Shown: positions 19,050 to 60,615, counted from the stretch's first letter. The stretch is 64,000 nt of DNA from Candidatus Sumerlaeota bacterium (GCA_017161655.1 JADFCV010000004.1:75378-139377), one strand, 5' to 3'. Translations and numbers: made by a program. Notes: generated from the sequence alone by a model not told the origin.

Positions 19050-19070
19050 GGCCTGGAACTCCTCGAATGA

Positions 19071-22528: not shown

Positions 22529-22541
22529 CGTCGTCACCTCC

Positions 22542-43135: not shown

Positions 43136-43677
43136 CCCGCCAGCTATGAAATCGGGAGTGCATCATTTTCCGAACCTCACCCAGAGGCAGAAAAACAGAC
43201 GCGTTTAGGGCGTGTAACGCTTGTTCTCTGACAAAGCGCGCAAAACCACAAGAAACTTTTCTTCTCACCTCATGATGGTCCTACAGAGAAATTCTGAGCC
43301 AACGACGCATCGCCTTACGGGGCGAAACGGCTCTCTCTCGGGCGTTTAAAATTTTGGGGCGCTGCCTCTCTCCTGAGGTAGTTCCAGGTACAGGGAGAAG
43401 ACTGGACGCGCTCTCAGCCCCGCCGGGAGTGCCTTAAGAAAACCTCTGACCTCGTGTTTCTCTCGTTTCCTGTCTGCCTTGACTTTGTTCCTGCCATTAG
43501 AGAAATTTGTCTCTAGGTTTGGTTGCGGGCGCGTCCCTTATCGCCCAACGCCCCGCTGCTCCTGCCACACTGTTGAATGAAACACGGTGGCGTGGGACCA
43601 GGCCACGAGCGAGACTAGCCCAGGGCATCGGAGCCAGTCTCGGTGGAGCGCAACCTCAACTCGAAAGGAGATTATCC

Positions 43678-44337
43678 ATGAACCTCCTCAAAGAAATAGC
43701 CGACCTTGTGGCGATGGGGCATCCCGATTCTCAGTCGAAGTATCCGCCTTCGCTGGCAGGTCAGCCCGGCGTTGCCGAGAAAGTGTCGCAGGCACTTTCC
43801 GAAGGCATCGAGCCTCAATGCATTCTCACCCAGGGGCTCATGGCCGGGATGGAAGTTGTTGGACGTCGTTTCGGTGCAGGAGAAATCTTTGTGCCGGAAG
43901 TATTGATGGCGTCGAAAGCCATGAAAGCTGGGGTAGAACTTCTCAAGCCGCACTTAGCAAGTGCCAGCGTTAGTCGGCGAGGGGTTTTCGTCCTCGGCAC
44001 TGTGCAGGGCGACGTCCATGACATCGGGAAGAATCTTGTGAAAATTCTCACCGAGGGTGCCGGCTGGGATGTGGTGGACCTGGGAACCTGTGTTCCGGCA
44101 GAGAAGTTCGTCGAAGCCGTGCGGCAGTATCGACCAGTTGCGGTAGGTCTCTCTGCACTTCTTACCACCACAATGCAAGAAATGCCTAAGGTGATCGAAT
44201 CCTTGCGGCAATCTGATCTAGACGTGCCGGTCATAGTTGGCGGTGCCCCCGTCAACGAATCCTTTGCGCGAAGCATAGGAGCAGAATATGGCCGGGATCC
44301 ACAAGCAGCTGTAGAATTCCTCAGCGCGCTAAATTAG
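43678..44337 (+). CDS. Standalone cobalamin (B12)-binding protein (B12-binding_2 cap plus Rossmann B12-binding domain)
   Basis: DxHxxG motif (GDVHDIGKN), SxL (LSALL), GG (IVGGAP). AAAGGAG ribosome-binding site before the ATG at 43678. 219 aa. Confidence 0.8.
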   Translation: MNLLKEIADLVAMGHPDSQSKYPPSLAGQPGVAEKVSQALSEGIEPQCILTQGLMAGMEVVGRRFGAGEIFVPEVLMASKAMKAGVELLKPHLASASVSRRGVFVLGTVQGDVHDIGKNLVKILTEGAGWDVVDLGTCVPAEKFVEAVRQYRPVAVGLSALLTTTMQEMPKVIESLRQSDLDVPVIVGGAPVNESFARSIGAEYGRDPQAAVEFLSALN

Positions 44338-44461
44338 AGAAATCATTCTCTAATTTCTCCGCAAAATTTGCGTGTTTCTGTGAGGCCATTGCCGGGTTGA
44401 GGCAAGAAAATTGTCAGAAATTGAGATAAATCGCGAATAATTTCTCTATTGGAGGATTATA

Positions 44462-45223
44462 ATGAGTGCGAAACGAGAAAAAATTCTCGAATCAAAGGCG
44501 AGAAAGAGCCAGGAAGAACTGATGGGAGCCGTCACACTCGAAAACATCACGAGCGACCCAAGAAGCCAGACGGTGCCCACGCCTTCTCTCCGGCGCCTCC
44601 CGCTCTATCTCCGGCTCCTCAGGGACTACCAAGCCCAGGGCCGCACGGTTGTCTCATGCACGCAACTCGCATCGGACCTGCGCTTCGACCCCACTCAGGT
44701 GCGAAAAGACCTCGCCCTCACGAAGGTCGGTGGTCGGCCCAAAGTTGGCTACCCCATTGCGGAGCTTATCGCTGCCATCGAAGACTTCCTCGGGTGGCGC
44801 CGGACTATCGAGGCGGTTCTTGTCGGAGTGGGCAGTCTGGGGACGGCACTCCTGGGTTACAACTTCTCGCTCTATGGTTTGAGCATTGTCGGAGCCTTCG
44901 ACTCTGCACCGGACAAGGTCGGGCAGGTTGTCCATGGCCGCGAAATCATGCCCATTGGCTACCTCACCAACTTTATCCGACAGCGCGGGATCCCGATGGG
45001 CATTCTCACTGTGCCCGCAAGCGCCGCGCAAAGCGTGGCGGAAATGATGGTGGCCGGCGGCGTAAAAGCGATTTGGAACTTCACAAGCGCCGCTTTGCAG
45101 TTACCTGACCACGTTCTGGTCGAACGTGCAGATTTCTCCGCCAGCCTGGCTGTGCTCACCCGTGCCCTTGCTCACGGTGCGCGATCCTTGGCCCCGACTA
45201 TCCCTAAAAAGGAGGTCACCTAG
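44462..45223 (+). CDS. rex: Redox-sensing transcriptional repressor Rex
   Basis: Rex wHTH (LPLYLRLLRDY) plus CoA/NAD-binding Rossmann (VLVGVGSLGTALLGY). Stop is 8 bp before hydC. Confidence 0.88.
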   Translation: MSAKREKILESKARKSQEELMGAVTLENITSDPRSQTVPTPSLRRLPLYLRLLRDYQAQGRTVVSCTQLASDLRFDPTQVRKDLALTKVGGRPKVGYPIAELIAAIEDFLGWRRTIEAVLVGVGSLGTALLGYNFSLYGLSIVGAFDSAPDKVGQVVHGREIMPIGYLTNFIRQRGIPMGILTVPASAAQSVAEMMVAGGVKAIWNFTSAALQLPDHVLVERADFSASLAVLTRALAHGARSLAPTIPKKEVT

Positions 45224-45231
45224 GACCAGCT

Positions 45232-45750
45232 ATGGCTCCATGCCTTTGCGAAGCAACCCGCACATCGGATAAAGTCCGTTTTCAGCAAGTCTGCGAAATC
45301 CTCGAACGTTTCGAGCGCAACCCGAATCTCCTGGTACCCATCCTTCAGCAAGTTCAACAGGTTTATCGGTACCTTCCTCCCGAAATCCTTGAGTTTGTTG
45401 CGACCTCTCTAAATCTTCCCGCCGCCCATGTCTATGGGGTGGCCACGTTCTATGCTCATTTTACCCTCGAACCCAAAGGCAAGCACCTCATCAAAGTCTG
45501 CGACGGAACAGCGTGCCATGTGAAAGGATCCACCCAGATCCTTGAAGCCTTGCGCCAGCATCTTCAGCTAAAAGATTCGGCCAACACCACCGAGGATATG
45601 CAGTTCACCGTTGAAACGGTTTCGTGCCTTGGTGCGTGTGGTCTCGCCCCTGTCGTTGTCATCGACGACGACGTTCACGGGAATCTCTCTCCGGCCCAGG
45701 CAGTGCAACTCGTGGACCAAACCGCTTGCGAAAAGGAGGAAGAGCAATGA
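45232..45750 (+). CDS. hydC: [FeFe]-hydrogenase NuoE-like subunit (thioredoxin-like [2Fe-2S] ferredoxin)
   Basis: NuoE/HndA family Cys pattern (CDGTAC...CLGACGLAPVV). Confidence 0.85.
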   Translation: MAPCLCEATRTSDKVRFQQVCEILERFERNPNLLVPILQQVQQVYRYLPPEILEFVATSLNLPAAHVYGVATFYAHFTLEPKGKHLIKVCDGTACHVKGSTQILEALRQHLQLKDSANTTEDMQFTVETVSCLGACGLAPVVVIDDDVHGNLSPAQAVQLVDQTACEKEEEQ

Positions 45751-47678
45751 CGAGCACTGTCCAGGTCGATTTAGAAACTTTCGTCGAACAATATCAAAAG
45801 GCGGCCGCACAGATTCGACAGCGAATCATTGTCTGCGCTGGAACGGGGTGCGTCGCGAGTGGGTCGCTCAAAGTCTACGAAAGATTTGTTCGAGAGCTCC
45901 AGCTGTGGGGGCTCGACGTCGATGTTGAGCTACGCGTGGAAGCGAATGAAGAAGCGCCAGACCATGCGCAGCCGAGTCCGTCGAAGTACCTGGTCACTCG
46001 CAGCGGGTGCCAAGGGTTTTGCCAGATGGGACCGCTGGTCTCGATCCTTCCTCAAAAGGTCTTCTATGTCCGCGTCAAACCTGAAGACGTTCCTGAAATT
46101 GTCCAGAAAACGCTCCTCGGCGGCGAAACGGTGGACCGCCTACTCTATCAGGACCCAAAGACGAAGAAACGCGCGGTCAACACAGATCACATCGACTTTT
46201 ACAAAAAGCAACATCGCTTAGTGTTAGCCCAGTGCGGGGTTATTGATCCCGAAAACATCGATGAGTATCTTGGGATTGGCGGATACCAGGCTGCACGGCG
46301 CGCATTTACCCAAATGTCGCCCGAGCAGATCTGCAAAATCATCACCGACTCTGGTTTGCGCGGCCGTGGTGGCGGAGGCTTCCCCACCGGCGTGAAGTGG
46401 GATGCTGCACGCAAACAACCGGGCGACACAAAGTATGTGATTTGCAACGGTGACGAGGGCGACCCGGGAGCTTTCATGGACCGCAGCGTGATGGAGGGCA
46501 ACCCCCATGCCGTGCTCGAAGGGATGATGATTGCCGCCCGAGCAATTGGGGCTCACGCCGGCTACATCTACGTACGAGCCGAATATCCCCTCGCTGTGCA
46601 GCGCCTACGCCGAGCCATCCAGGATGCTTATGAGCTGGGTTTGCTCGGTGAGGATCTCTTCGAAACGGGTTACGCTTTCGACATTGAGCTTATGGAAGGT
46701 GCTGGGGCTTTCGTGTGCGGCGAGGAAACGGCGCTCATCGCCTCCATCGAGGGCCAGCGCGGTATGCCTAGACCCAAACCTCCTTTTCCAGCCCAAGCTG
46801 GACTCTGGGGGAAGCCGACCGTGATCAACAACGTGGAGACTCTTGCCACCGTTCCCCTTATCCTGCGCCATGGCCCCGAGAAATTCCGTGCCCTCGGCAC
46901 GCCTTCCAGCCCAGGGACCAAGACCTTTGCCCTCACCGGGCACGTGCCTAATACGGGGCTCATCGAGGTGCCTTTTGGTGCCACACTGCGCCAGATTATT
47001 TTCGATATTGGAGGAGGCGTCACTGACGCCAGAGGACGCATCCGCGAGGACGCTTTCAAGGCCGTGCAAATTGGCGGACCTTCGGGCGGATGTCTGACTC
47101 GCGAGCACCTCGACCTGCCGCTCGATTTCGATAGCCTCAAAAGCGTTGGGGCGATGGTGGGCTCCGGTGGACTCGTTGTCATGAATTCGCAAACCTGCAT
47201 GGTGCAGGTGGCGCGCTTCTTCATGCAATTCACTCAGAACGAAAGCTGTGGCAAATGCGTTCTCTGCCGTGAAGGCACAAAGCAGATGCTCGCCTTGCTG
47301 GACGAGATCATCGAAGGTCGCGGCACGCAGCAGACCCTCGAGTTGCTCGAAATAGTCGCTCGTACGGTCCAAAAGGGCTCGCTTTGCGGTCTCGGCAAGA
47401 CTGCGCCAAATCCGGTCCTCTCGACACTGCGTTACTTCCGGAAGGAATACGAGGCCCACATCGAGTTCAAACGCTGTCCCGCGGGGCAGTGCAAAGCGCT
47501 GGCTGTTCCCACGATCCTAGCAGAGCGTTGCCGTGGCTGCGGCCTCTGCATTCGTGCGTGCCCCGTCGGCGCCATCACAGGTGAGCGCAAAAAACCGCAT
47601 GTGATTGACCAAGATCGCTGCATACGCTGCGGGGCCTGCTTCACCGCCTGCAAACTCGACGCCATAACCTATGCCTAA
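45747..47678 (+). CDS. hydB: [FeFe]-hydrogenase NuoF-like subunit (NADH/FMN-binding, Fe-S)
   Basis: N-terminal [2Fe-2S] domain, FMN/NADH site (GRGGGGFPTGVKW), SLBB, NuoF 4Fe-4S, two C-terminal ferredoxin motifs. ATGA overlap with hydC. Confidence 0.9.
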   Translation: MTSTVQVDLETFVEQYQKAAAQIRQRIIVCAGTGCVASGSLKVYERFVRELQLWGLDVDVELRVEANEEAPDHAQPSPSKYLVTRSGCQGFCQMGPLVSILPQKVFYVRVKPEDVPEIVQKTLLGGETVDRLLYQDPKTKKRAVNTDHIDFYKKQHRLVLAQCGVIDPENIDEYLGIGGYQAARRAFTQMSPEQICKIITDSGLRGRGGGGFPTGVKWDAARKQPGDTKYVICNGDEGDPGAFMDRSVMEGNPHAVLEGMMIAARAIGAHAGYIYVRAEYPLAVQRLRRAIQDAYELGLLGEDLFETGYAFDIELMEGAGAFVCGEETALIASIEGQRGMPRPKPPFPAQAGLWGKPTVINNVETLATVPLILRHGPEKFRALGTPSSPGTKTFALTGHVPNTGLIEVPFGATLRQIIFDIGGGVTDARGRIREDAFKAVQIGGPSGGCLTREHLDLPLDFDSLKSVGAMVGSGGLVVMNSQTCMVQVARFFMQFTQNESCGKCVLCREGTKQMLALLDEIIEGRGTQQTLELLEIVARTVQKGSLCGLGKTAPNPVLSTLRYFRKEYEAHIEFKRCPAGQCKALAVPTILAERCRGCGLCIRACPVGAITGERKKPHVIDQDRCIRCGACFTACKLDAITYA

Positions 47679-47702: not shown

Positions 47703-49739
47703 ATGACTCCCCAAGTGCACCAAAACAAACTTCTCATAGACGGACGAGAAGTCACCTTTAGTCGCGAACGCAATCTGCTCGAAGTTTGCCGTAAGGCAGA
47801 CATCGACATCCCCACATTTTGCTATCACTCCCACCTCAGCATTTACGGAGCTTGCCGCTTGTGCCTCGTGGAAGTGGAGGGACTCGGCATTGTCACTTCT
47901 TGCACCACTGTGCCCAAGCCCGACATGCGCGTGCGAACCACCTCGCCGGAAATCCGCGAAATGCGTCGTGTCGCTGTCGAACTCTTGCTAGCCAGCCACG
48001 ACCGCGACTGTCCGACCTGCCCCAAAAACGCCACTTGTAAATTGCAATCCATAGCACGCCGCCTTGGCGTCCGCGAAGTGCGTTTCAAAACAACTGTGCA
48101 AGGCATGCCTCTGGATAAATCCTCTCCGGCTATCGAACGGAATCCAAACCGCTGTATCCTGTGCGGCGACTGTGTCCGCGTTTGTCGAGAGATTCAGTCC
48201 GTCGGAGCAATCGATTTTGCTTTCCGCGGCAGCAAGACTGTGGTCGCGCCTGCCCTTGGCCGTCCGCTTGGCGCCAGTGAGTGTGTGCATTGCGGCCAAT
48301 GTGCTGCTGTTTGCCCCACTGGCGCGATTGTACCCAAGAGTGAAATCGAAGAAGTGTGGCAGGCTTTGGCCGACCCTGAGAAAAAGGTCATTGCCCAAAT
48401 TGCACCCGCAGTGCGCGTCGCGATCGGTGAGGCGTTTGGGCTGCCTAGCGGCACCGTGGCCACAGGGCAAATCGCAGCCGCGCTGCGAAGGCTTGGCTTC
48501 GTCCAGGTTTACGACACCTCTTTTGCAGCTGATCTTACGGTAATCGAAGAGGGCACAGAGTTTCTCAACCGCAAGCAACGCGGCGGAAATCTGCCGATGT
48601 TCACATCCTGTTGTCCGGCGTGGGTGAAATTCGCTGAGCAATACTATCCCTCCCTGCTTGGGAATCTCAGTTCTTGCCGTTCCCCGCAGCAAATGTTTGG
48701 TTCTCTCGCGAAGGCAACCTTGCCGGCTGCGCTCGGCATCAAGCCCGAGCAGCTTGTTTGCGTCTCGATTATGCCTTGCACCGCGAAGAAGTTTGAGGCG
48801 CGCCGACCAGAATTCGAGCGAGACGGAATCCGGGACGTCGACTATGTTTTGACCACTCAAGAGCTCATTGCCATGATTGAGGCACAGGGGTTTGATCTCG
48901 CCAGCCTGCGTCCTGAGCCGATGGACCTTCCCTTTGGTCAAAAATCTGGAGCCGGAATCATCTTCGGAACGTCAGGCGGCGTCGCTGAGGCCGTCCTTCG
49001 CTACGTTCTCTCCAAGACTTATGCCACTGATCTTGCCCGCATCGAATTCCAGGAAGTGCGAGGTTCCGAAGGGACTCGTGAGGCGACGGTCGAAATTGGG
49101 GGCGCTCCCATCCGTATTGCTGTGGTGCATGGACTTGCTCAGGCGCGCCGCCTTGCGGAAAAAGTCATCGCTGGCGAAACTTCTTACGACCTTGTCGAAG
49201 TCATGGCATGTCCGATGGGCTGTGTGGGCGGGGCTGGTCAACCAGTTGCCACGCGCCGCAACACTCTGGCAAAGCGGGCGGCTGCACTCTATGACATTGA
49301 CCGGTGCGTCGAAATCCACACTCCCCAGCAGAATCCAGCGATCGTGGAGTGCTACCGCGACGTCCTCAAGGCTCCGGCTAGTCCGAAAGCGCACGAACTG
49401 CTGCACACTCACTACGTCAGCCGTCGACGTGTCATCGCCGAGCCACTAGAAATTGCATGCCCCAAAGAAGCGCGAATCGAGGTTACGGTTTGTGTGGGAA
49501 CAAACTGTTTTCTGCGCGGGAGCCGACAGCTTCTCGACGAAATTGTGCGAGCTGTACAGGCCCGTGGCTGGGCAGAAAAAGTAGCAGTCAAAGGAACGTT
49601 CTGCTTTGAGAATTGCCGCAAAGGGCCAAACGTGGCCGTGGGCAAAAAGCTGATCAGCGAGGCAACAGCAGATGTGGTTCTCCAGGAAATCGAGAACCAG
49701 CTGCCCCAAAAAGAAAACCGCGAACTGGCCGTGAGGTAG
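47703..49739 (+). CDS. hydA: [FeFe]-hydrogenase catalytic subunit HydA (group A3-type; C-terminal small-subunit-like and [2Fe-2S] domains)
   Basis: Canonical H-cluster motifs L1 FTSCCPAW, L2 MPCTAKKFE, L3 EVMACPMGCVGGAGQP. N-terminal [2Fe-2S] and 4Fe-4S domains. C-terminal NuoE-like [2Fe-2S] domain. Confidence 0.9.
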   Translation: MTPQVHQNKLLIDGREVTFSRERNLLEVCRKADIDIPTFCYHSHLSIYGACRLCLVEVEGLGIVTSCTTVPKPDMRVRTTSPEIREMRRVAVELLLASHDRDCPTCPKNATCKLQSIARRLGVREVRFKTTVQGMPLDKSSPAIERNPNRCILCGDCVRVCREIQSVGAIDFAFRGSKTVVAPALGRPLGASECVHCGQCAAVCPTGAIVPKSEIEEVWQALADPEKKVIAQIAPAVRVAIGEAFGLPSGTVATGQIAAALRRLGFVQVYDTSFAADLTVIEEGTEFLNRKQRGGNLPMFTSCCPAWVKFAEQYYPSLLGNLSSCRSPQQMFGSLAKATLPAALGIKPEQLVCVSIMPCTAKKFEARRPEFERDGIRDVDYVLTTQELIAMIEAQGFDLASLRPEPMDLPFGQKSGAGIIFGTSGGVAEAVLRYVLSKTYATDLARIEFQEVRGSEGTREATVEIGGAPIRIAVVHGLAQARRLAEKVIAGETSYDLVEVMACPMGCVGGAGQPVATRRNTLAKRAAALYDIDRCVEIHTPQQNPAIVECYRDVLKAPASPKAHELLHTHYVSRRRVIAEPLEIACPKEARIEVTVCVGTNCFLRGSRQLLDEIVRAVQARGWAEKVAVKGTFCFENCRKGPNVAVGKKLISEATADVVLQEIENQLPQKENRELAVR

Positions 49740-49745
49740 CTCACC

Positions 49746-51530
49746 ATGGTCCCGCAAGCGCTCCAGAAACCGCCGCTCATATCCACAAATCGCGCCAAGT
49801 GTCGCGACTGTTACCGTTGCGTCCGGATGTGCCCCGTTAAGGCTATTCGGATGAAGGACGGCCAGGCACAGGTGGTGGAGGAGCGGTGCCTCTTCTGTGG
49901 CACCTGTGTGCGGGAGTGCCCTCAAAAGGCTAAAACCATTCGCGACGACACGACGTGGGCCATGGAGCTCCTGGCGCAACGCAAGAAGGTCGCCGCCAGC
50001 GTCGCTCCGACCTATCCAGCAGCCTTTGCAGAGCACGAGGTTCGTCGCCTTGCCAGCGCGCTGCGAAAGCTTGGCTTCGCCTACGTGGGCGAGACGTCTG
50101 TGGGTGCCGATGCTGTGGCTGTGGCCACATCCCGGTGGCTTGCAGAAAACCGCGAGCGCCAGCCGTTGGCTGTGACCAGTGCATGTCCTACCGCCATCCG
50201 CTACATCGAGCTTTACGCACCCGAATCTGTTAGCAGCGTCGTGCCTCTCGTCTCGCCCATGATTGCCCATGCGAAGCATTTGCGGCAGGAAATCGGCGCC
50301 GATGCTGTTGTGTTCATTGGCCCTTGTATCGCCAAGAAATTTGAAGCACAGCGGCCAGAGCATGCTGGACTTGTGGACTGCGTGCTCACCTTTGCGGAGT
50401 TGCGCTCCTGGCTCGAACGCGAAGGTATAGTCTTCGAGCAACTGGAAGAAAGTCGGTTTGATGAAGAAGGTTCCCCGCGCGGGCGTCGCTTTCCTTTGGC
50501 AGGTGGACACCTCCACGCGTCCGAACTTCCCAGCGACCTGCTTCAGCCCGAGGTCTGTGCCGTGACCGGTGTCGAGGCTTTACGGGAATGCTTATCGTTA
50601 GGCGTGCCAGAGCACCCAACAGTTGTTGAGCCTCTTTTCTGTGATGGCGGTTGCATAGGTGGTCCGGGAATCGGATGGGAGGAAAACCATTTTCGACGCA
50701 GACTGCGCGTGTTAGCCCATGCGGCTCGCGCTGCACGGACAAACGGAAAAACCCAAGTACCAGCGCCCACTCCGAAGCTGCTTCAGGGACTGAAAACCAC
50801 TTACCAGCCCCAACCTGTTGACCGCACTTCCCCCAGCGAGGACGCAATTCGCCGCGCCCTTGCCCAGATCGGAAAAATTGATCCACGTGATCAGCTCGAT
50901 TGCGGGGCGTGCGGTTATCGTTCCTGCCGCGAGAAAGCCATCGCCGTGGTACGCGGGCTTGCTGAGCCTGAAATGTGCATGCCTCGTATGCGACTGCTTG
51001 CTGAGCGGCGCATGGATCGCATTATGGAAACGAGCCCCAACGGGATCGTGATTCTCGATCACGAGTTGCGTATCATTGCCATGAATCCGGCGTTCCAAAA
51101 AATGTTCCTGTGTTCTCACCTCGTCCTCGGTCGGCACATCTCATATCTTACAGACGCAACCCCCTTCGAGCAATTGCTTGCCAGTCGTTGCGGCAAGCTG
51201 GAGCGAACAGCGTCGGAACCACGCTACGGCAGAATCTTCCACCAAATCGTTTACGCCCTGGAAGAAGACCAGCAAATCGTCGGGATCTTCGTTGATATCA
51301 CAGAAAGTAGCTTGAACCGCGAAAAGCTGGCGATTGTGCACCGAGAGGCTCTCGATCGTAGCAGGCAACTTCTTGAGCACCAAGTTCGTATGGCCCAGGA
51401 CATCACTCGACTCCTTGCCGAACACACGGCGCACGGCGAGGAGCTCGTGAAAAGCTTGCTTGAAGCAGCACTCGTCGAACCCCACGCCAGCGTTGCCTCA
51501 CACATGGCACTGGCACACAAAGATGCTTAG
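49746..51530 (+). CDS. hydS: HydS-like putative sensory [FeFe]-hydrogenase with C-terminal PAS domain
   Basis: N-terminal 2x[4Fe-4S] ferredoxin. H-domain with degenerate motifs TSACPTA (Cys to Ala), IGPCIAKKFEA (Met to Gly), EPLFCDGGCIGGPGI (Met to Leu). C-terminal PAS-like region. Confidence 0.8.
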   Translation: MVPQALQKPPLISTNRAKCRDCYRCVRMCPVKAIRMKDGQAQVVEERCLFCGTCVRECPQKAKTIRDDTTWAMELLAQRKKVAASVAPTYPAAFAEHEVRRLASALRKLGFAYVGETSVGADAVAVATSRWLAENRERQPLAVTSACPTAIRYIELYAPESVSSVVPLVSPMIAHAKHLRQEIGADAVVFIGPCIAKKFEAQRPEHAGLVDCVLTFAELRSWLEREGIVFEQLEESRFDEEGSPRGRRFPLAGGHLHASELPSDLLQPEVCAVTGVEALRECLSLGVPEHPTVVEPLFCDGGCIGGPGIGWEENHFRRRLRVLAHAARAARTNGKTQVPAPTPKLLQGLKTTYQPQPVDRTSPSEDAIRRALAQIGKIDPRDQLDCGACGYRSCREKAIAVVRGLAEPEMCMPRMRLLAERRMDRIMETSPNGIVILDHELRIIAMNPAFQKMFLCSHLVLGRHISYLTDATPFEQLLASRCGKLERTASEPRYGRIFHQIVYALEEDQQIVGIFVDITESSLNREKLAIVHREALDRSRQLLEHQVRMAQDITRLLAEHTAHGEELVKSLLEAALVEPHASVASHMALAHKDA

Positions 51531-52668
51531 TCTTTACGCAGAAATAGAGGCAGCCGATATCCCGAAAGTCGCCAACGGGATTAGCGGCGACGTCCTCGTA
51601 ACGTTGCGCTATCCCGAGTCCACCTACGTCATGTTAGCTGACGGGCTTAAGAGCGGTATCCACGCCAATCTCGCTGCTCAGTTTGCGTTGGCACGTCTGC
51701 AGGCAAAACTCGAGTGCGGCGCCCCACTCAGCCATGCACTTGCGGACATTCTAACCACTCTCGAGGAAAACCGGCGGAAACTTTCTCTATGGAGTGCGCT
51801 CAGCATTGCCCACATCTTGCCCTCAGGAGCGACGACGGTCTACGCATACGAGATGCCGGATCCTCTTGCTCTCATGCGACGCCGGCTTCACCCCGTTCCT
51901 GCAGAGCACCTCAATCTCGGTGGCGCACTCATTGCCAAATACAACCTGGAACTCAACGAAAACGACGGGCTTCTGCTTTTCTCCGATGGCGTCACACAAG
52001 CGGGTGTTGGAAATGGCCTGACCTGGGGGTGGGGCATCGATGGAATTCGCCGCGAAGGAGAGTTTTTCATCGCCAGCGATTCACTGCGCCGTCTGCCGCA
52101 TTTCCTCGTGCAGCGAGCCAGACAACTTTCAAGTGAGGAGCAATCCGATGATGCCACAGCGGTTTTGGTGCTCCTGCGGCGCGCCAAGCGCGTTGTCGTG
52201 TTCACGGGTCCACCTTCTGATCCCGCTAAGGACTCAGAAATTGTCCAGCAGTTCCTTTCATCTGAAGGCACAAAGATTGTTTGCGGAGGAACAACTGCCG
52301 GCATCGTGGCGCGTGTTCTGGGCACAGAGGCAATTGTCGATCCGAAATCGCTTCACCCATATTGCCCTCCTCGTCTCATTCTCGATGGTGTGGACTATGC
52401 CACCGAGGGAGCCGTGTGCTTAAATCAGCTCTACAATCTCCTCGATGCCGCCCCCACCGCCGTAGAAGAGCGCAACATCGTTGTTCAGCTTTACGAGGAA
52501 TTCATCCGTGCGGACCACATCACGTTCTTGGTGGGGAAATCAGAAAACCCGGCAACAGCTTCTCAGCCCTTTTTTCAAATGGGCATTCTCCGACGCCAGC
52601 AGATTGTCCCTCTCCTCGCGGACAAACTGCGCACGTTGGGGAAGCTCGTCACTATAGAATGGGTCTAA
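51523..52668 (+). CDS. PP2C-type (SpoIIE/RsbU-like) Ser/Thr phosphatase with uncharacterised ~180-aa C-terminal alpha/beta domain
   Basis: PPM motifs (GISGDVL...ADGLKSGIHANLAAQ...DGLLLFSDGV). 8-bp overlap with the hydS stop. C-terminal half (IVCGGTTAGIVARVLG) has no assignable family. Confidence 0.7.
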   Translation: MLSLYAEIEAADIPKVANGISGDVLVTLRYPESTYVMLADGLKSGIHANLAAQFALARLQAKLECGAPLSHALADILTTLEENRRKLSLWSALSIAHILPSGATTVYAYEMPDPLALMRRRLHPVPAEHLNLGGALIAKYNLELNENDGLLLFSDGVTQAGVGNGLTWGWGIDGIRREGEFFIASDSLRRLPHFLVQRARQLSSEEQSDDATAVLVLLRRAKRVVVFTGPPSDPAKDSEIVQQFLSSEGTKIVCGGTTAGIVARVLGTEAIVDPKSLHPYCPPRLILDGVDYATEGAVCLNQLYNLLDAAPTAVEERNIVVQLYEEFIRADHITFLVGKSENPATASQPFFQMGILRRQQIVPLLADKLRTLGKLVTIEWV

Positions 52669-52680
52669 AAGATAAGAAAA

Positions 52681-52756
52681 TGGAGCTGGCGGTCGGATTC
52701 GAACCGACGACCTGCTGATTACAAGTCAGCTGCTCTGCCAGCTGAGCTACGCCAGC
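52681..52756 (-). tRNA. tRNA-Thr (anticodon UGU), CCA-encoded
   Basis: Cloverleaf folds by hand: 7-bp acceptor, GCTC/GAGC D-stem, anticodon loop CTTGTAA, TTCGAAT T-loop. 76 nt including CCA. Confidence 0.85.
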
Positions 52757-54495: not shown

Positions 54496-56736
54496 TTATT
54501 GTGCTCCGATCACCGCGATGGCTGTGAGGTTAATAATATCTTTCACCTCGTCCCCGCGCTGCAAGATATGCACAGGTTTTCGCATTCCCACCAGAATGGG
54601 TCCAACAAGCTCTGCGTCAGCCAGGCGTGCCACCAGCTTGTATCCAATGTTGCCAGCCTCTAGGTTCGGGAAGATCAGGACATTCGCCTCGCCACCGAGC
54701 ACGTTAAAGGGATAGGTTTCGTTCAAGTGATCCGCGTTGAGCGCGGTGTTCGCCTGCATTTCGCCGTCGACGTGCAAGTCGGGATCCAGTTGACGCGCAA
54801 TTTGCACCGCTTCCTGAACCATCTGAGTCCGAGCATGTCGGACACTTCCGAAATTTGAAAAGCTAAGCATGGCCACGCGCGGCTCCACGCCAAAACTGCG
54901 AGCCAGGTTCGCCGTCAAAACAGCAACACGCGCCATTTGCTCTGCGTCCAGCTCTATATTGACCGTCGTGTCTGCGAAGAACAAAACACGCTGCTTCGTG
55001 ATGATCAGGTAAACACCCGCTGCAGTCTTGTACTTGGGATCTACCCCAATGATCCGCATAGGCGGGCGTAGGCCATCAGGGTAGTGATATTCGATGCCAG
55101 AGATCATCACATCAGCATCGCCCAGCTCCACCATAGCCGATGCATAATAGTTCGGGTGCCGCACGAGCTCAAACGCCTCGCTTAACGTCACACCTTTCCG
55201 GCAGCGCAGTTCATAAATACGCCGCGCATAACGCTCACAGTTTGGAGAGCTGGAGATATCCTCGATTTTCATCCCCTCAACGCTGAGTTTAAGCTTGGCG
55301 GCCTGTTCCTGGATCAAAGTCGGATTGCCTAGAAGGATGGGGATAGCAATCTGTTGCTCAACAAGCTGGCGAGCAGCCTGGAGAATCTTCGGATGGCTCC
55401 CTTCGGCGAAAACGACTCGCTTGGGTGCGGTGCGCGCTTTGTGGAACACAATGCGCATGATCTCGCGCGAACGTCCCAGCCGACTCTCTAGCGATTCTCG
55501 ATACTTCTCCACATCCAGAACGTGCCGTGCCACGCCGGACTCAATAGCAGCCTGAGCGACTGCGGGTGCTACCCACATGAGCACCCTAGGATCGAGTGGC
55601 TTGGGAATGAGATAGTCCGGCCCGAACGAGAGCGATTCCATCCCATAGGCCTTCGCTACAGTTTCGGGAACGCTCTCGCGTGCCAGCGCCGCTAGTGCTT
55701 TTGCTGCGGCCACTTTCATCTGCTCGCTGATCTGGCGCGCGCGCACGTCAAGTGCTCCCCGGAAGATAAAGGGGAAGCCCAGGACGTTGTTGACTTGATT
55801 CGGATAGTCTGATCGCCCGGTGGCTACGATGGCATCCGGCCGCACCGCTTTCGCGACGTCGTATGGAATCTCTGGGTCAGGATTTGCCAGTGCAAAAACA
55901 ATTGGTTTCGGCGCCATACTGAGCAGCATAGCTTCTGTCACGAGTCCTGCCACGGATAGCCCAACGAAAACGTCCGCATCTCGCATAGCATCCGCAAGCG
56001 TGCGTGCCTGCGTCTCAGCAGCAAACTCCTGTTTCCACTTGTTCATCCCCACCTCGCGTCCGGCATAGATCACCCCTTTCGAGTCTACGATGACGATATT
56101 CTCTTTGCGAGCGCCGAGCAGGCAGTAGAAGCGAGCCGTTGCGATGGCAGCTGCTCCTGCTCCGCTGAAGACAATTCTCACGTCCTCGATCCGCTTGCCG
56201 ACCAATTCGAGGGCGTTGAGCAGCGCTGCACCGGAAATAATGGCTGTCCCATGCTGATCGTCGTGAAACACGGGAATCTGCATCGTTGCGCGCAGTGCCT
56301 CTTCGATCTCGAAACACTCCGGCGCTTTGATGTCTTCCAGGTTGATCCCCCCAAAGGTTGGTTCAAGAAGTTGCACCGTACGGATGACTTCGGCTGGATC
56401 CTTCGTCGCCAGCTCGACGTCAACGGCATCAATATCAGCAAAGCGTTTGAATAAGAGGGCTTTCCCCTCCATCACCGGTTTTCCCGCGAGGGGGCCGATG
56501 TCGCCCAAACCTAGCACCGCTGTACCATTGCTCACGACTGCCACCAGGTTGCCGCGCGCCGTGTATTTGAACACATTCTCAGGGTTCGCCTCGATTTCCC
56601 GGCACGGCTCAGCCACTCCTGGCGTATATGCCAATGCGAGGTCACGCTGCGTCAAACATGGCTTCGTCGGGCGGATTTCAATTTTTCCCGCTGGCGGTCT
56701 GCTGTGATAGGATAACGAATCATCGCGTAGTGTCAT
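54496..56736 (-). CDS. maeB: NADP-dependent malic enzyme (malic enzyme fused to phosphotransacetylase-like domain)
   Basis: Malic enzyme N-terminal and NAD(P) domains ([10 protein letters not shown]) followed by a ~330-aa PTA-like C-terminal domain. 746 aa. Confidence 0.9.
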
Positions 56737-56780
56737 GGCTCCGAACCTCCTCGCCGGGCGTAAGGCTTCATTCTCTTCTC

Positions 56781-58778
56781 ATGAACAGAGTGTCCCCCTC
56801 TGCACCCTTCACATGCAAGAGCAGCTTCGACGTGACGCAGGTATCTGTCTATTTTCTTGCCATGCCGGCTTCACCAATCCGCAAATTTGGCAGCGTGAGC
56901 CACCACGAAGTGCTAAAAATCAATCGGACCGATCTGACCGTTATTCTTCTCGATGTTTTTGCTTTATTGTGCTTCGGTGCGGCATTGGTTCTCTTGGGGC
57001 TTAGTGATGCTCCCCTCGGTTTTCAGCCCATGCTTGCGCACACGCTGCTTGCTGCCGCAGTCGTCGGCAGTATTGCAGCTCACAACCTTGTCGGGCGTCT
57101 TTCGCTTTATTGGTCCCATTTTGATTTTCTCGTGGCTGTGTTTTTCGCCTACCTCTTTGCTACTCTTTACTATAGCGAGGCGCGGGGGGCCACCGCTACC
57201 TCTCTGACTTGGATGGTCGACGGTGTGTGGGCTTTCCTGTTAGGCCGCTACCTTCTGTTTCGTCGCCTCGGAAGCTTCACCATCGTGGCGTTTTGTGTGT
57301 GCCTGGGGCTGTGGGCAGTTGCGGAGAGTCTACTTTCCCGCGCTGGACCTTCGAATGAAATGGCACAGTCAGCACTGGCGTCGCTCGAGTCCACGCAAAG
57401 CCTGGCCTTCACCTTCGGATTAGTGATTTTGTTGGCTCAGCCTTTTTTTGTCCTGCGAAAACCTGCGAATCTCGTTTTTGTCTTGTGGGCTGGAGCTCTC
57501 CTTATCGGAGTGACCGTTTGGTGTGTTCACTCCCTGCTCGCTTTAATCGAATCCTATCGTCTCGGCTTACTTGGAAATTGGACTTTCGCGCAAACCGTCC
57601 TCTTTGCGACGGCGCGACGGCTTTTTCTCGCCTACCCCGTGACTGGCGGCGGCGCAGGAACCTGGCCATGGATGGCCCCCGCATTTCGTCCCGTAGGGTA
57701 CGTAGAGCTTCCTGCCATTGTTCCAGCGGCGATTCGCATTCTCTGCGAGTGGGGAGCGGTGGGAACCTTCTTTTTCCTCGCGGCGTGGCTGCGCGTGCCA
57801 TGGTTTGTGGTTCGTCGGTGGGAGTTATTTCCCAATCGCCGTTTGCGTCTCAGCGTCTTCGTTTTTCTCTCACTCATGCTGTTGGCATTCGTGCGGCTTT
57901 TCGTCGCTGATGATTTTGGCCAGCCATGGGGATGGGTCTTCCTCTGGGCACTTTTCGGAACATTTGTGAGTCTTGTCGCAGTGCGGGATCCCATGCGCAT
58001 ATTTTACGAGAAGTGGGCTCTGGCAGAGCAGCAGGCCTTAACTATGCCGCGTGCTGCCGGCGCCAAAAGCTCCGCCCTTATGCGGCGACCACCATCGCGC
58101 TTAGCCATTGTGTTGCGCACAGCGATGGCTGCTGTGACAGCACTTGTCCTCCTCACGCTTCAGGCCATGCCCCACCGCGCAGCTGCCCTTGCGCAGCGCC
58201 AGCAAGGAGAATCGCTTTCTGCAATGTCGTATGGTGAGCGCCTCGAACGGGCGGTTTTCATCTTTCCCTATTATGCCGACGGATGGGCACGACTGGCTCA
58301 GCATTACCAGGAACGAGCCGCAGGAGATTCGCTGGCGCTTCTCGCCCTCGCACCACGCGTGGAAACGGCGTATCGCCGCGCAATTGATGCAAACCCCTAC
58401 GTGCCAACTTTCTATGAACAGCTTGCGCTGTTTTACAACGACACCAATGCCCCCGCCCGTTCTTTGGAAGTCTTGCGTCTGGGAGTGGCCAACAACCCCA
58501 ATCATCTTGTGGTGCGGCTGTTGCTTGTCCGCGAACTGGAACGTGCTCAGTCCTATGCGCTTGCCACGTGGCATTTGCGCCAGGCCCTCTTCAGAATTGC
58601 TCCGCTACAAGCAGAACTGTTTGTACGACTTGCCGAGCTTTACGAGTACCGTGGAATGCGAACAGCGGCCATCCGCTCGTGCCAATATGCGCGCCAGGGT
58701 TTGCCAAGCACGTCCAGCGCCCTCATGAGGTTACGCCGAATCGCGGAGAGACTCGGTATCAGCAAAATCCTGATATGA
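56781..58778 (+). CDS. Polytopic membrane protein (O-antigen ligase/Wzy_C-like) with C-terminal TPR repeats
   Basis: About 10-12 TM segments then TPR-like helical repeats (WARLAQHYQERAAGD...YRRAIDANP...). Start uncertain: the longest ORF begins at 56628 and overlaps maeB. Confidence 0.55.
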   Translation: MNRVSPSAPFTCKSSFDVTQVSVYFLAMPASPIRKFGSVSHHEVLKINRTDLTVILLDVFALLCFGAALVLLGLSDAPLGFQPMLAHTLLAAAVVGSIAAHNLVGRLSLYWSHFDFLVAVFFAYLFATLYYSEARGATATSLTWMVDGVWAFLLGRYLLFRRLGSFTIVAFCVCLGLWAVAESLLSRAGPSNEMAQSALASLESTQSLAFTFGLVILLAQPFFVLRKPANLVFVLWAGALLIGVTVWCVHSLLALIESYRLGLLGNWTFAQTVLFATARRLFLAYPVTGGGAGTWPWMAPAFRPVGYVELPAIVPAAIRILCEWGAVGTFFFLAAWLRVPWFVVRRWELFPNRRLRLSVFVFLSLMLLAFVRLFVADDFGQPWGWVFLWALFGTFVSLVAVRDPMRIFYEKWALAEQQALTMPRAAGAKSSALMRRPPSRLAIVLRTAMAAVTALVLLTLQAMPHRAAALAQRQQGESLSAMSYGERLERAVFIFPYYADGWARLAQHYQERAAGDSLALLALAPRVETAYRRAIDANPYVPTFYEQLALFYNDTNAPARSLEVLRLGVANNPNHLVVRLLLVRELERAQSYALATWHLRQALFRIAPLQAELFVRLAELYEYRGMRTAAIRSCQYARQGLPSTSSALMRLRRIAERLGISKILI

Positions 58779-58832
58779 CGCTGCTCCTTAGCAGCGATCA
58801 TTGCCGATGCGCACGTGGGGGCAGAAACAATT

Positions 58833-59429
58833 TCAGGATTCTTCGAGCAGATACATAGCAGCTTCAGCGCGCAAATTAGGAAGCCACTTCACCATTTTCC
58901 CACAACTCACGAAAGCGCGGTCCAGTGTGCGCCAGCCTTCCGTCTTCACAAATTCCTCCCAGTCGAGCACCGTGAGGTAATGTCGGTTTGGTGTCTCGTA
59001 CCAAGTGTAAGGAAGACAGGGAGTGCTCGGGGCGCGTCCCAGCACACCGAGTTGCCAACGCGCCTGCCAATGACCAAAATTCGGAAAAGTCACAATGAGC
59101 TGGCGACCCACTCGAAATGCCTCGCGCAGGAGGCGCTGCGGATGGCCGAGCTCCTGAATTGTGAGGCTGAAAATGACAATGTCGAAACCGTCGTCCGCGT
59201 AATGTCCCAGTCCCTCTTCAGCGTCCCCATGGTGGACGCTCAGACCGCGCTGTATGGCCTGGCGAACGTTTGCTTCGTTGAGCTCGATGCCTGTTCCACG
59301 AGCGTTTTTTTCTTTAACCAGTCGCTCCAGCAAACGTCCATCACCACACCCCACGTCCAACACTCTCGATCTTGCGGGGGTCTTGGCTACTATCCAATCT
59401 TCGATGAACTTTATGTTAGATTCCCTCAC
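58833..59429 (-). CDS. metW: Methionine biosynthesis protein MetW
   Basis: SAM-MTase-like VLDVGCGDG motif. MetW-like length. 14-bp overlap with metX. Confidence 0.85.
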
Positions 59430-60615
59430 CGCCGTCTCCTTCGAAGACCTGGGCCTTGGCTCGTTCGAGGAACGATGCGATCAGCGGGGCCTGCGCTGCA
59501 TGCTCCAGCAGAAAAGCGTCGTGTCCATAATCGCTATTGATCTCGCAGTAGGTGGCATCGCCTCCCACACGTCGCACGGCTTGTGCAACTTCTTTCAATT
59601 GCTGGGGCGGATACAGCCAGTCGGAGGAAAACGTGATGAACAAAAACAGCGTTTTCGTTCCCAAAAAGACTTCACGCAGCTCGCCCGTGCCCTGAGTCAG
59701 ATCAAAATAATCGAGAGCTTTTGTTAGATAGAGCAGAGAATTCGCATCGAAGCGTTCGACAAAGCTCTGGCCTTGATAGCGCAGGTAGCTCTCCACTTCA
59801 AAATCAATGGAGGTAAAGTCGAAGCCGTAGCGCTCGCGATTGCGTAACCGGCGACCAAATTTCCGCTCCATGCTCGCATCCGAGAGATACGTAATGTGGC
59901 CAATCATGCGAGCTACAGCCAGCCCCATGCGTGGCCCTTCGCCATCGTAGTAATCGCCCTTGTTCCAGGCCGGATCTGCCATGATTGCTTGACGAGCCAC
60001 TTCGTTGAAAGCGATCTGCTGGGCGGAGTGTCGCCAGGTCGTTGCGATAGCGATGACTGATTGCACACGTTCCGGACGCGACGCTGCCCATTGAAGCGCC
60101 TGCATCCCTCCCATGGAGCCACCCGTCACGCACAGCACACGGTGAATTCCCAAATAATCGAGCAACCGCGCCTGCACGTTCACCATATCCCGAATAGTGA
60201 CGACGGGGAAACGCAACCCATACGGTTTGCCGGTCTGCGGATCAATCGAGCTTGGCCCCGTCGTGCCATAGCAGCTGCCGAGCACATTCGAACAGATTAC
60301 GAAATACTTGTTTGTGTCGAATGCCTTTCCAGGGCCAATCATGATATCCCACCAGCCGGGCTTCTTTTGGCCCGGGAGCCAGCCTGCCGCATGTGCCCCG
60401 CCGGAAAGCGCGTGGCAAACAAGAATGACATTGTCGCGCGCTGGCGAGAGTTCGCCGTACGTCTCGTAGGCCACGGTGATCGGACCAAAGCGAACACCGC
60501 TCTCTAATTCGAGTCCTTCTTGAAAGAGTTCAACGTACTTCGTTTCTACCAGCCCCAACCCTTCGTGGGCTTGCGGTGCTGCGCTCTCGCTCTCTCGATC
60601 AACGTTCATTGTCAT
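59416..60615 (-). CDS. metX: Homoserine O-acetyltransferase
   Basis: alpha/beta hydrolase GGSMGG nucleophile motif, [10 protein letters not shown]-terminal signature. Start at the internal ATG (MTMNV) with GAGG ribosome-binding site, 19 nt after the metY stop. Confidence 0.88.

What the first reader, a model, noticed from the sequence alone, without database searches (positions are those of the whole stretch)
50175..50675. HydS H-cluster motifs: proton-relay Cys replaced by Ala, both Met positions substituted
In the HydS-like ORF the three H-cluster motifs read TSACPTA (canonical TSCCPxW), IGPCIAKKFEA (canonical MPCxxKxxE) and EPLFCDGGCIGGPGI (canonical ExMxCxxGCxxGGGQP). The [4Fe-4S]- and [2Fe]H-ligating Cys residues are kept. 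The Cys that starts the proton-transfer pathway is Ala, and the two Met flanking the [2Fe] subcluster are Gly and Leu. This is the substitution pattern reported for the slow, sensory hydrogenase HydS of Thermotoga maritima. The ORF also has a C-terminal PAS-like domain. The Met to Leu substitution in L3 (rather than Ser) may be a lineage-specific variant.
Basis: partly seen in the sequence, partly recalled or inferred. Interest (0 to 1): 0.6.

Follow-up and report, generated by a model that had tools for sequence, protein, structure and literature searches.

The report
Putative hydrogen-sensing [FeFe] hydrogenase HydS
This gene encodes an ordinary member of the already described "sensory" (group C, phosphatase-linked) [FeFe] hydrogenases; it sits behind an electron-bifurcating hydrogenase operon, and its active-site substitutions, the Met-to-Leu change included, are the commonest pattern in this family, not a lineage-specific oddity.

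Summary
ORF 49746-51530 (+, 594 aa) carries TSACPTA, IGPCIAKKFEA and EPLFCDGGCIGGPGI at exactly the stated coordinates. Alignment to solved HydA structures and to the canonical HydA encoded just upstream shows these are the L1-L3 H-cluster motifs. All four cluster-ligating Cys are kept. The proton-relay Cys is Ala146, and the two flanking Met are Gly192 and Leu297. The other four canonical proton-pathway residues are also replaced.

The architecture is 2x[4Fe-4S], H-domain, Cx2Cx4Cx16C, PAS, then a long helix. The gene closes a rex-hydC-hydB-hydA-hydS operon and overlaps by 8 nt a PP2C/SpoIIE phosphatase gene. That cassette recurs in about 30 of 49 related genome loci from many phyla. This matches the published group C (M2f) / HydDB C3 "phosphatase-linked" putative H2 sensor.

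The suggestion that Leu in L3 is lineage-specific is wrong. Leu occurs in 120/120 close homologs and 86/150 diverse representatives. Ala/Gly/Leu is the commonest combination (61/150), whereas the T. maritima Ala/Gly/Ser type is rare (4/150). Leu is also published for TamHydS.

Verdict: a new member of a known kind, of low interest. The sensing mechanism and the phosphatase target remain unknown for the whole family.

The parts
49746..51530 (+). hydS: group C (M2f-type) putative sensory [FeFe] hydrogenase, 594 aa
   Evidence: ORF. Pfam finds Fer4 x2, Fe_hyd_lg_C, FeS (PF04060) and PAS. AF2 model has pLDDT 89. Foldseek top hits are [FeFe] hydrogenases with E of 1e-23 to 1e-18. The same 594-aa gene call is on record in a public assembly.
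49800..49922 (+). N-terminal two [4Fe-4S] (F-cluster) motifs, C19xxC22xxC25xxxC29P and C48xxC51xxC54xxxC58P
   Evidence: Cys positions. Fer4 family hits over aa 13-62.
50175..50195 (+). L1 motif TSACPTA: Ala146 replaces the proton-relay Cys (CpI C299); Cys147 is a [4Fe-4S]H ligand
50316..50348 (+). L2 motif IGPCIAKKFEA: Gly192 replaces CpI M353; Cys194 is a ligand; Lys197 and Glu200 are kept
50628..50672 (+). L3 motif EPLFCDGGCIGGPGI: Leu297 replaces CpI M497; Cys299 and Cys303 are ligands
50901..50978 (+). C-terminal [4Fe-4S] motif C386x2C389x4C394x16C411 (Pfam FeS, PF04060)
   Evidence: Cys positions. PF04060 E=9e-11. The four Cys are present in 149/150 representatives. The motif is the one described for M2e/M2f enzymes (PMC8163306).
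51009..51305 (+). PAS domain (aa 422-520)
   Evidence: Pfam PAS_8/PAS/PAS_9. AF2 strands 433-437, 442-446, 484-491, 496-505 and 510-517.
51300..51473 (+). Long C-terminal helix (aa 519-576), possibly a coiled-coil or partner-binding element
   Evidence: AF2 secondary structure H519-576 with pLDDT 73-85. Its function is inferred.
51523..52668 (+). PP2C/SpoIIE-family Ser/Thr phosphatase (381 aa) with an unannotated C-terminal alpha/beta domain. Its ATG overlaps the hydS stop (ATGCTTAG).
47703..49739 (+). hydA: catalytic group A (bifurcating-type) [FeFe] hydrogenase with canonical TSCCPAW / MPCTAKKFEA / EVMACPMGCVGGAGQP
   Evidence: NF040763 at 738 bits, TIGR02512 at 499 bits
45747..47678 (+). 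hydB: NuoF-like flavoprotein subunit
   Evidence: Pfam Complex1_51K and NADH_4Fe-4S. TIGR01959.
45232..45750 (+). hydC: NuoE/HoxE-like [2Fe-2S] subunit. Its stop overlaps the hydB start (ATGA).
44462..45223 (+). rex: redox-sensing transcriptional repressor, first gene of the cassette
   Evidence: NCBIfam NF003994 E=4e-78, above its cutoff. Conserved upstream of hydC in related loci.

Best explanation
The ORF is a group C (M2f architecture, HydDB subtype C3 'phosphatase-linked') [FeFe] hydrogenase, that is, a HydS-type putative H2 sensor. It most likely binds a complete H-cluster through Cys147/194/299/303. It has lost the whole group-A proton-transfer pathway, so it should activate H2 only slowly. 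[quoted passage not shown] That change would pass through the C-terminal [4Fe-4S] module, the PAS domain and the long C-terminal helix to the translationally coupled PP2C phosphatase. The phosphatase would then change the phosphorylation state of an unidentified target and so adjust expression or activity of the co-encoded bifurcating HydABC hydrogenase. Rex would add an NADH/NAD+ input to the same operon. Shown here: motif identity, domain architecture, fold, conservation, operon structure and synteny. Inferred from characterised homologs (TmHydS, TamHydS) and from genetics in R. albus and Thermoanaerobacterium: slow turnover, H2 sensing, the signalling route and the phosphatase target.
For: Motifs and ligand Cys are at the stated sites. 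All five canonical proton-pathway residues are replaced: E279 to A127, E282 to R130, R286 to E134, C299 to A146 and S319 to V166. This matches what is published for TmHydS (PMC10055695 Fig. S5 legend; PMC10407848). H-cluster environment residues K197, E200 and P171 are invariant in 120 homologs. The domain order Fer4x2, H-domain, Cx2Cx4Cx16C, PAS equals the published M2f description (PMC8163306; PMC13104023). The AF2 model is confident (pLDDT 89) and its best structural matches are [FeFe] hydrogenases. The rex-hydC-hydB-hydA-hydS-PP2C order recurs in about 30 of 49 loci from Planctomycetota, Bacillota, Omnitrophota, Spirochaetota, Bacteroidota and others. There is an 8-nt overlap between hydS and the PP2C gene. 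The PP2C is of the partner-switching SpoIIE/RsbU type and keeps its catalytic Asp residues. HydDB defines C3 as phosphatase-linked (PMC5037454). PAS-bearing C3 genes next to A3 hydrogenases are described in Hydrogenedentota (PMC11406978). A PAS-containing HydS plus a Ser/Thr phosphatase is proposed as an H2 sensor in R. albus (PMC6776011).
Against: No group C enzyme has been shown in vivo to sense H2; the literature calls the role 'putative' (PMC8924675). In TamHydS the C-terminal [4Fe-4S] cluster is not reduced by H2, which argues against a simple redox relay through that cluster (PMC13104023). CpI M497L fails to hold the [2Fe] subcluster properly (cited in PMC10055695), although TamHydS, which has Leu there, does hold it. 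No HydE/F/G maturase genes were recognised in the window. No kinase, STAS protein or other candidate substrate is conserved downstream of the PP2C gene. No canonical Rex operator was found near the operon. Formal phylogenetic or HydDB placement was not done.
Confidence: 0.85

Rival explanations
1. HydS is a working, slow catalytic or electron-transfer subunit of the HydABC complex (a fourth 'T' subunit) that contributes to H2 turnover or bias control, and is not a signalling protein.
For: It keeps all H-cluster ligands and both F-clusters. It is co-transcribed 6 nt behind hydA. TmHydS and TamHydS have measurable H2 oxidation and evolution activity (PMC10055695, PMC8163306). The Hydrogenedentota study names the adjacent C3 gene a BfuT subunit.
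Against: The PAS domain, the long helix and the translationally coupled PP2C phosphatase are signalling hardware and are conserved across phyla. The proton pathway is lost. Solved HydABC complexes contain no such subunit; the top PDB hits are HydA chains only.
Confidence: 0.08
2. It senses the cellular redox state (ferredoxin pool or another reductant) through its Fe-S clusters and PAS domain. The H-cluster site would be vestigial or structural, so H2 is not the physiological signal.
For: There are three accessory [4Fe-4S] sites plus a PAS domain. In TamHydS the C-terminal cluster does not respond to H2. The cassette already carries the redox sensor Rex. No maturase genes were seen in the window.
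Against: The four H-cluster Cys are kept in 148-150 of 150 diverse representatives and Lys197 in 145 of 150. In the 120 nearest homologs the four Cys, Lys197, Glu200 and Pro171 are all invariant. This indicates selection for [2Fe]H binding. Homologs TmHydS and TamHydS assemble an H-cluster and react with H2. Maturase genes are often unlinked, and the window covers only 64 kb of a 363-kb contig.
Confidence: 0.05
3. One reading: Leu297 in L3 marks a lineage-specific, functionally distinct HydS subtype.
For: TmHydS, the best-studied group C enzyme, has Ser at this site, and that Ser tunes the [4Fe-4S]H potential. No PAS-bearing Ala/Gly/Leu enzyme was found among the characterised enzymes in the papers read.
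Against: Leu is found in 120/120 close homologs, in at least 45 of 49 loci across about ten phyla and in 86/150 diverse representatives. Ala/Gly/Leu is the commonest combination at 61/150. Leu at this site is published for TamHydS, and the site is reported as poorly conserved in groups C and D.
Confidence: 0.02

Closest known systems
TmHydS, Thermotoga maritima group C (M2f) putative sensory [FeFe] hydrogenase (Chongdar et al. 2018; PMC10055695)
   Same: Same domain order: 2x[4Fe-4S], H-domain, C-terminal 4-Cys cluster, PAS. Ala at the relay Cys and Gly at M353. The canonical proton-pathway residues are all changed and the ligand Cys are kept. Local motifs are similar, as reconstructed from the published primers: TTACPVV, VGPCIAKKS.
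   Different: L3 is EPLFC here, with Leu297, against EASAC with Ser267 in TmHydS. That Ser is proposed to H-bond to and raise the potential of [4Fe-4S]H; Leu cannot do so. The Tyr223 of TmHydS is Phe249 here, as in CpI F417. No full-length sequence comparison was possible because the TmHydS sequence was not retrievable with these tools.
TamHydS, Thermoanaerobacter mathranii group D (M2e) putative sensory [FeFe] hydrogenase (PMC8163306)
   Same: Ala at the relay Cys, Leu at M497, the Cx2Cx4Cx16C cluster, and a gene next to a bifurcating HydABC.
   Different: TamHydS lacks the PAS domain and has Ser, not Gly, at M353. [quoted passage not shown] Its Glu252/Glu289 alternative proton path is reported as specific to group D.
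HydDB [FeFe] group C3 'phosphatase-linked', e.g. R. albus HydS and the Hydrogenedentota 'BfuT' (PMC5037454, PMC6776011, PMC11406978)
   Same: A PAS-bearing H-cluster protein encoded with a Ser/Thr phosphatase and beside a group A hydrogenase. The proposed role is H2 sensing.
   Different: In R. albus the sensor is co-transcribed with a ferredoxin-only A1 hydrogenase and an alcohol dehydrogenase. Here it follows the bifurcating A3-type HydCBA, and no adhE lies in the cassette (an adhE is present in related locus L024). Subtype assignment here rests on gene context, not on HydDB's own classifier.
Regulatory [NiFe] hydrogenase HoxBC-HoxJ-HoxA of Cupriavidus necator (group 2b)
   Same: The same logic: a slow, sensor-grade hydrogenase coupled through a PAS-containing element to a phosphorylation switch that controls hydrogenase genes (as summarised in PMC5707799).
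   Different: A different metal site and an unrelated protein family. The output there is a histidine kinase and response regulator, not a PP2C phosphatase. This is an analogy only.

Membership tests
[FeFe] hydrogenase (H-domain proteins) | Fe_hyd_lg_C H-domain with the four H-cluster Cys in motifs L1-L3 | tested here: met
   PF02906 E=3.4e-49. C147, C194, C299 and C303 align to the ligand Cys of solved HydA chains and of the window's HydA. Foldseek top hits are [FeFe] hydrogenases.
[FeFe] hydrogenase group C/D (putative sensory, HydS) | Loss of the proton-relay Cys (CpI C299) and of the other group-A proton-pathway residues | tested here: met
   A146, A127, R130, E134 and V166 stand at the C299, E279, E282, R286 and S319 positions. 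The published criterion is in PMC8163306 and PMC10407848.
[FeFe] hydrogenase group C/D (putative sensory, HydS) | Substitution of the Met residues that frame the [2Fe] subsite (M353, M497) | tested here: met
   G192 and L297. Literature: Gly is about 51% at M353, and M497 is not conserved.
[FeFe] hydrogenase group C/D (putative sensory, HydS) | N-terminal 2x[4Fe-4S] domain and C-terminal Cx2Cx4Cx16C cluster motif | tested here: met
   The eight N-terminal Cys and C386/C389/C394/C411 have the exact spacing. PF04060 hit.
Group C (M2f) as opposed to group D (M2e) | PAS domain after the C-terminal cluster | tested here: met
   Pfam PAS_8 and PAS are above their gathering scores. The PAS fold is present in the AF2 model.
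HydDB subtype C3 (phosphatase-linked) | Encoded with a Ser/Thr phosphatase | tested here: met
   A PP2C/SpoIIE gene overlaps the hydS stop. The pairing is conserved in 34 of 49 loci.
HydDB subtype C3 (phosphatase-linked) | Clusters with C3 reference sequences in HydDB's sequence-similarity network or k-NN classifier | not testable with these tools
NCBIfam has no group C model; the best hit, TIGR04105, scores 203 bits against a cutoff of 450.
Group C sensory hydrogenase (function) | Low turnover, an unusual positive Hox/Hred potential, and H2-dependent signalling | not testable with these tools
   This needs biochemistry and genetics. It is only inferred from TmHydS and TamHydS.
PP2C/PPM phosphatase (partner protein) | PPM fold with conserved metal-binding Asp residues | tested here: met
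   [not shown]

The most novel reading that the evidence does not exclude
Ala/Gly/Leu PAS-HydS proteins are the numerically dominant active-site type of sensory [FeFe] hydrogenases. None appeared among the characterised enzymes in the papers read (TmHydS is Ala/Gly/Ser; TamHydS is Ala/Ser/Leu and lacks PAS). Each is paired with a dedicated 381-383-aa PP2C whose roughly 160-aa C-terminal alpha/beta domain matches no Pfam family, and no kinase or substrate is encoded nearby. The module might therefore act directly on HydABC, Rex or HydS itself through a new docking domain, and not through a classical partner-switching cascade.
Probability: 0.15. Interest if true: 0.5.

Novelty: new member of a known kind. 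Interest (0 to 1): 0.2.

Why it matters
For this window it matters little. The gene is a textbook group C3 HydS in a widely conserved cassette, and the same protein is already in public assemblies. Two points may help the field. First, in the 150 most similar cluster representatives the Leu variant is the majority state (86/150) and the TmHydS Ser is rare (13/150). Conclusions from TmHydS about Ser267 tuning the [4Fe-4S]H potential may therefore not transfer to most family members. Second, the strict pairing with a two-domain PP2C, with no linked substrate, marks where the unknown signalling step lies. The organism, whose closest named relative is in Candidatus Sumerlaeaceae, also encodes a [NiFe]/Hdr-like system in the same window, so it could be used to study how several hydrogenases are regulated together.

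Tried and rejected
1. I tried to obtain the full TmHydS and TamHydS sequences for a direct alignment. They were not among the listed hits, and the single genome-contig scan returned only MAG relatives. I therefore used the residue identities and mutagenesis-primer fragments published in PMC10055695.

2. Zheng et al. 2014 on R. albus HydS (PMC4248817) is not held. I used secondary descriptions instead.

3. A search for a canonical Rex operator (TTGTGAAn6TTCACAA, up to 3 mismatches) gave 3 hits in the window. None is near the operon, and the count is at chance level. The promoter and terminator scans were also at chance level.

4. I looked for a conserved gene downstream of the PP2C gene, such as a kinase, STAS protein or regulator, in 34 loci. 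None is shared by more than 2 loci.

6. I looked for HydE/F/G in the window. Only a generic radical-SAM protein (8362-9621) turned up, with no maturase-specific domains.

7. I considered that the motifs might be chance or non-equivalent segments. The Pfam, PDB and HydA alignments reject this.

8. The AlphaFold coordinates are not exposed to the script tool, so I could not dock the H-cluster or measure distances.

Full report
**Observation**

The window contains an ORF at 49746-51530 on the + strand, 594 aa long. Translation places the three motifs as follows:
- TSACPTA at aa 144-150 (nt 50175-50195)
- IGPCIAKKFEA at aa 191-201 (nt 50316-50348)
- EPLFCDGGCIGGPGI at aa 295-309 (nt 50628-50672)

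The segment is not a chance resemblance. Pfam Fe_hyd_lg_C matches aa 80-307 with E=3.4e-49. phmmer against the PDB aligns TSACP with TSCCP, GPCIAKKFEA with MPCIGKKFEA, and EPLFCDGGC with EVMACPGGC of the HydA subunits of the T. kivui and T. maritima HydABC complexes.

The gene immediately upstream (47703-49739) is a canonical group A HydA carrying TSCCPAW, MPCTAKKFEA and EVMACPMGCVGGAGQP, so it serves as an internal reference. In a MAFFT alignment, Ala146 falls on the proton-relay Cys (CpI C299), Gly192 on M353 and Leu297 on M497. Cys147, Cys194, Cys299 and Cys303 fall on the four H-cluster ligands.

**Anatomy of the protein**

- Eight N-terminal Cys form two CxxCxxCxxxCP ferredoxin motifs (C19-C29 and C48-C58).
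- After the H-domain there is a C386x2C389x4C394x16C411 motif (Pfam FeS PF04060, E=9e-11). This is the spacing described for the C-terminal [4Fe-4S] cluster of M2e/M2f enzymes (PMC8163306).
- A PAS domain follows at aa 422-520.
- A long helix at aa 519-576 closes the protein (AlphaFold2 model, mean pLDDT 89, pTM 0.74).
- Foldseek against the PDB returns only [FeFe] hydrogenases at the top (CbA5H, HydA of HydABC, DdH, CpI), with E of 1e-23 to 1e-18 over about 430 columns. None of the 50 listed hits is a group C or D enzyme.

Beyond the relay Cys, the remaining group-A proton-pathway residues are also replaced: E279 to Ala127, E282 to Arg130, R286 to Glu134 and S319 to Val166. Residues that contact the H-cluster (Lys197, Glu200, Pro171) are invariant in 120 homologs. 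The same profile is published for TmHydS, where all proton-channel residues are altered (PMC10055695 SI; PMC10407848).

**Genomic context**

The gene is the fifth in a tight + strand cassette:

| Gene | Coordinates | Evidence |
|---|---|---|
| rex | 44462-45223 | NCBIfam Rex equivalog, E=4e-78 |
| hydC | 45232-45750 | NuoE/HoxE-like |
| hydB | 45747-47678 | NuoF-like; ATGA overlap with hydC |
| hydA | 47703-49739 | canonical group A HydA |
| hydS | 49746-51530 | 6 nt after hydA; GAGG Shine-Dalgarno 9 nt upstream of the ATG |
| PP2C/SpoIIE phosphatase | 51523-52668 | ATG lies inside the last codons of hydS (ATGCTTAG, 8-nt overlap) |

These assignments rest. A tRNA-Thr on the opposite strand (52681-52756) ends the unit.

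In 49 related loci taken from one genome per species, hydS is followed by this phosphatase in 34. The full rex-hydC-hydB-hydA-hydS-PP2C order recurs in about 30, across Planctomycetota, Bacillota, Omnitrophota, Spirochaetota, Bacteroidota and Deltaproteobacteria MAGs. Nothing is conserved downstream of the phosphatase, so the phosphatase target is not encoded next to it.

**How common is the substitution pattern?**

| Set | Relay site | M353 site | M497 site |
|---|---|---|---|
| 120 nearest database homologs (48-78% identity) | Ala 105, Ser 13, Cys 2 | Gly 120 | Leu 120 |
| 49 genome loci (three-site combination) | Ala/Gly/Leu in 36, Ser/Gly/Leu in 6 | | |
| 150 best-scoring 50%-identity cluster representatives (31-64% identity) | Ala 81, Ser 29, Cys 27 | Gly 142 | Leu 86, Met 19, Asn 18, Ser 13, Phe 5 |

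In the exhaustive HMMER search behind the third row, 148-150 of the 150 representatives keep the four ligand Cys, and 149 keep each Cys of the C-terminal motif. Ala/Gly/Leu is the commonest combination (61/150). The TmHydS combination Ala/Gly/Ser occurs in 4/150. The search counted 6036 proteins at E<=1e-3 and 905 at E<=1e-30.

The literature already records Leu at this site in TamHydS and notes that M497 is poorly conserved in groups C and D (PMC8163306; PMC10055695).

**Comparison with what is known**

The architecture equals the M2f / group C definition. Group D (TamHydS) lacks the PAS domain. [quoted passage not shown] PAS-bearing C3 genes adjacent to A3 bifurcating hydrogenases were catalogued in Hydrogenedentota as "BfuT" (PMC11406978). 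For R. albus, an H-cluster/PAS protein plus a Ser/Thr phosphatase has been proposed as the H2 sensor that controls hydrogenase and alcohol dehydrogenase expression (PMC6776011; PMC5707799).

Every sequence- or context-based defining feature I could test is met. Placement by HydDB's own classifier and all biochemical properties could not be tested. The nearest named relative is a Candidatus Sumerlaeaceae MAG protein at 70% identity. The identical protein is on record on a 363-kb NCBI contig and in a Logan assembly.

**Mechanism**

The best-supported reading is a slow, sensor-grade hydrogenase. H2 is activated at a normal H-cluster that lacks the fast proton exit. The resulting redox or conformational change is passed through the C-terminal cluster, PAS domain and helix to the co-translated PP2C. 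The PP2C changes the phosphorylation of an unknown target and thereby tunes HydABC, while Rex supplies NADH/NAD+ information to the same operon.

Only the parts list and its conservation are shown here; each signalling step is inferred. The field itself has no mechanism. No group C or D structure appeared in the PDB searches. The group C proton path is unknown. In TamHydS the C-terminal cluster is not reduced by H2, which argues against a simple electron relay (PMC13104023).

Rival readings:
- A catalytic "T" subunit of HydABC. I give this low weight because the signalling hardware is conserved across phyla.
- An Fe-S/PAS redox sensor with a vestigial H-site. I give this low weight because the H-cluster ligands and second-sphere Lys, Glu and Pro are under strong conservation.

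**Verdict**

The finding is real and correctly read as a HydS-type sensory [FeFe] hydrogenase. It is an ordinary new member of a known, very widespread kind. The one feature flagged as possibly special, Leu297, is the family norm. Interest is low. A residual point of interest is that I found no characterised PAS-bearing Ala/Gly/Leu enzyme in the papers read, and the partner PP2C carries an unannotated C-terminal domain with no linked substrate.

Noticed in passing
window 17526-23432 (- strand): A second, unrelated hydrogenase system: a [NiFe] large subunit (17526-19049, PF00374), a small subunit (19071-20042, PF01058), an HdrA-like flavoprotein with 2x[4Fe-4S] (20537-22618) and a CCG-domain HdrB-like protein (22542-23432). 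This looks like an Mvh/Hdr-type cluster.
   Followed up: no
[not shown]
   Followed up: partly
window 44334-44353 and 44418-44445 (rex upstream region): A perfect 8-4-8 palindrome, TTAGAGAA-ATCA-TTCTCTAA, lies at the end of the upstream gene. A second inverted repeat, AGAAATT...AATTTCT, lies just before the rex start. No canonical Rex box (TTGTGAAn6TTCACAA) is found anywhere near the operon.
   Followed up: partly
HydS aa 172 (window 50259-50261): The CpI Gln325 position, in the SPQQ motif next to the [2Fe] CN ligand, is Met here. It is Met in 117/120 close homologs and 105/150 diverse representatives. This further conserved active-site substitution was not mentioned in the passages I read.
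   Followed up: partly
L041:1643-3343 (Deltaproteobacteria MAG JAITKT010000180.1): A HydS homolog in the same hydA-hydS-PP2C context keeps both the relay Cys and the L3 Met (CTCCPVV, ESMFC). Among the 150 diverse representatives, 27 keep the relay Cys and 19 keep the Met. Loss of these residues is therefore not universal in PAS-bearing relatives.
   Followed up: partly
L024:962-3568 (also the gaps between rex and hydC in L022, L028, L035): In L024, from an Oscillospiraceae MAG, a bifunctional alcohol/aldehyde dehydrogenase (AdhE-like, 868 aa; identified by eye from the translation, not by a domain search) lies between rex and hydC. This recalls the R. albus HydS/ADH cluster. The Clostridia-class loci L022, L028 and L035 show a gap of similar size between rex and hydC, but it was not inspected. 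This window has no adhE in the cassette.
   Followed up: partly
L009:6042-9710: An orphan hydS copy (Anaerovoracaceae MAG) has no hydABC and no PP2C. It lies next to a 481-aa ORF whose translation looks like an IS-type transposase (judged by eye, no domain search). Several other loci likewise hold hydS alone.
   Followed up: no
window 37186-39867 (-) and 43507-44337 (+): A large PAS-GAF-HD(HD_5) signalling protein lies upstream of the cassette. A B12-binding-domain protein (PF02310/PF02607) lies directly in front of rex. No link between either protein and the hydrogenase operon is evident.
   Followed up: no
window 56628-58778 (+), 62172-63920 (-), 28479-29297 (+), 58815-59540 (+): Long ORFs (716, 582, 272 and 241 aa) have no Pfam family at E<=1e-6. 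The 56-58 kb stretch also has a strong negative AT skew (-0.285), and 30-32 kb has a positive one (+0.195).
   Followed up: no
window 51300-51473 (HydS aa 519-576): A predicted single helix of about 58 residues follows the PAS domain (pLDDT 73-85), and then a disordered tail. It resembles the signalling helices that normally link PAS domains to a fused output domain, but here the output (the PP2C) is a separate polypeptide.
   Followed up: no
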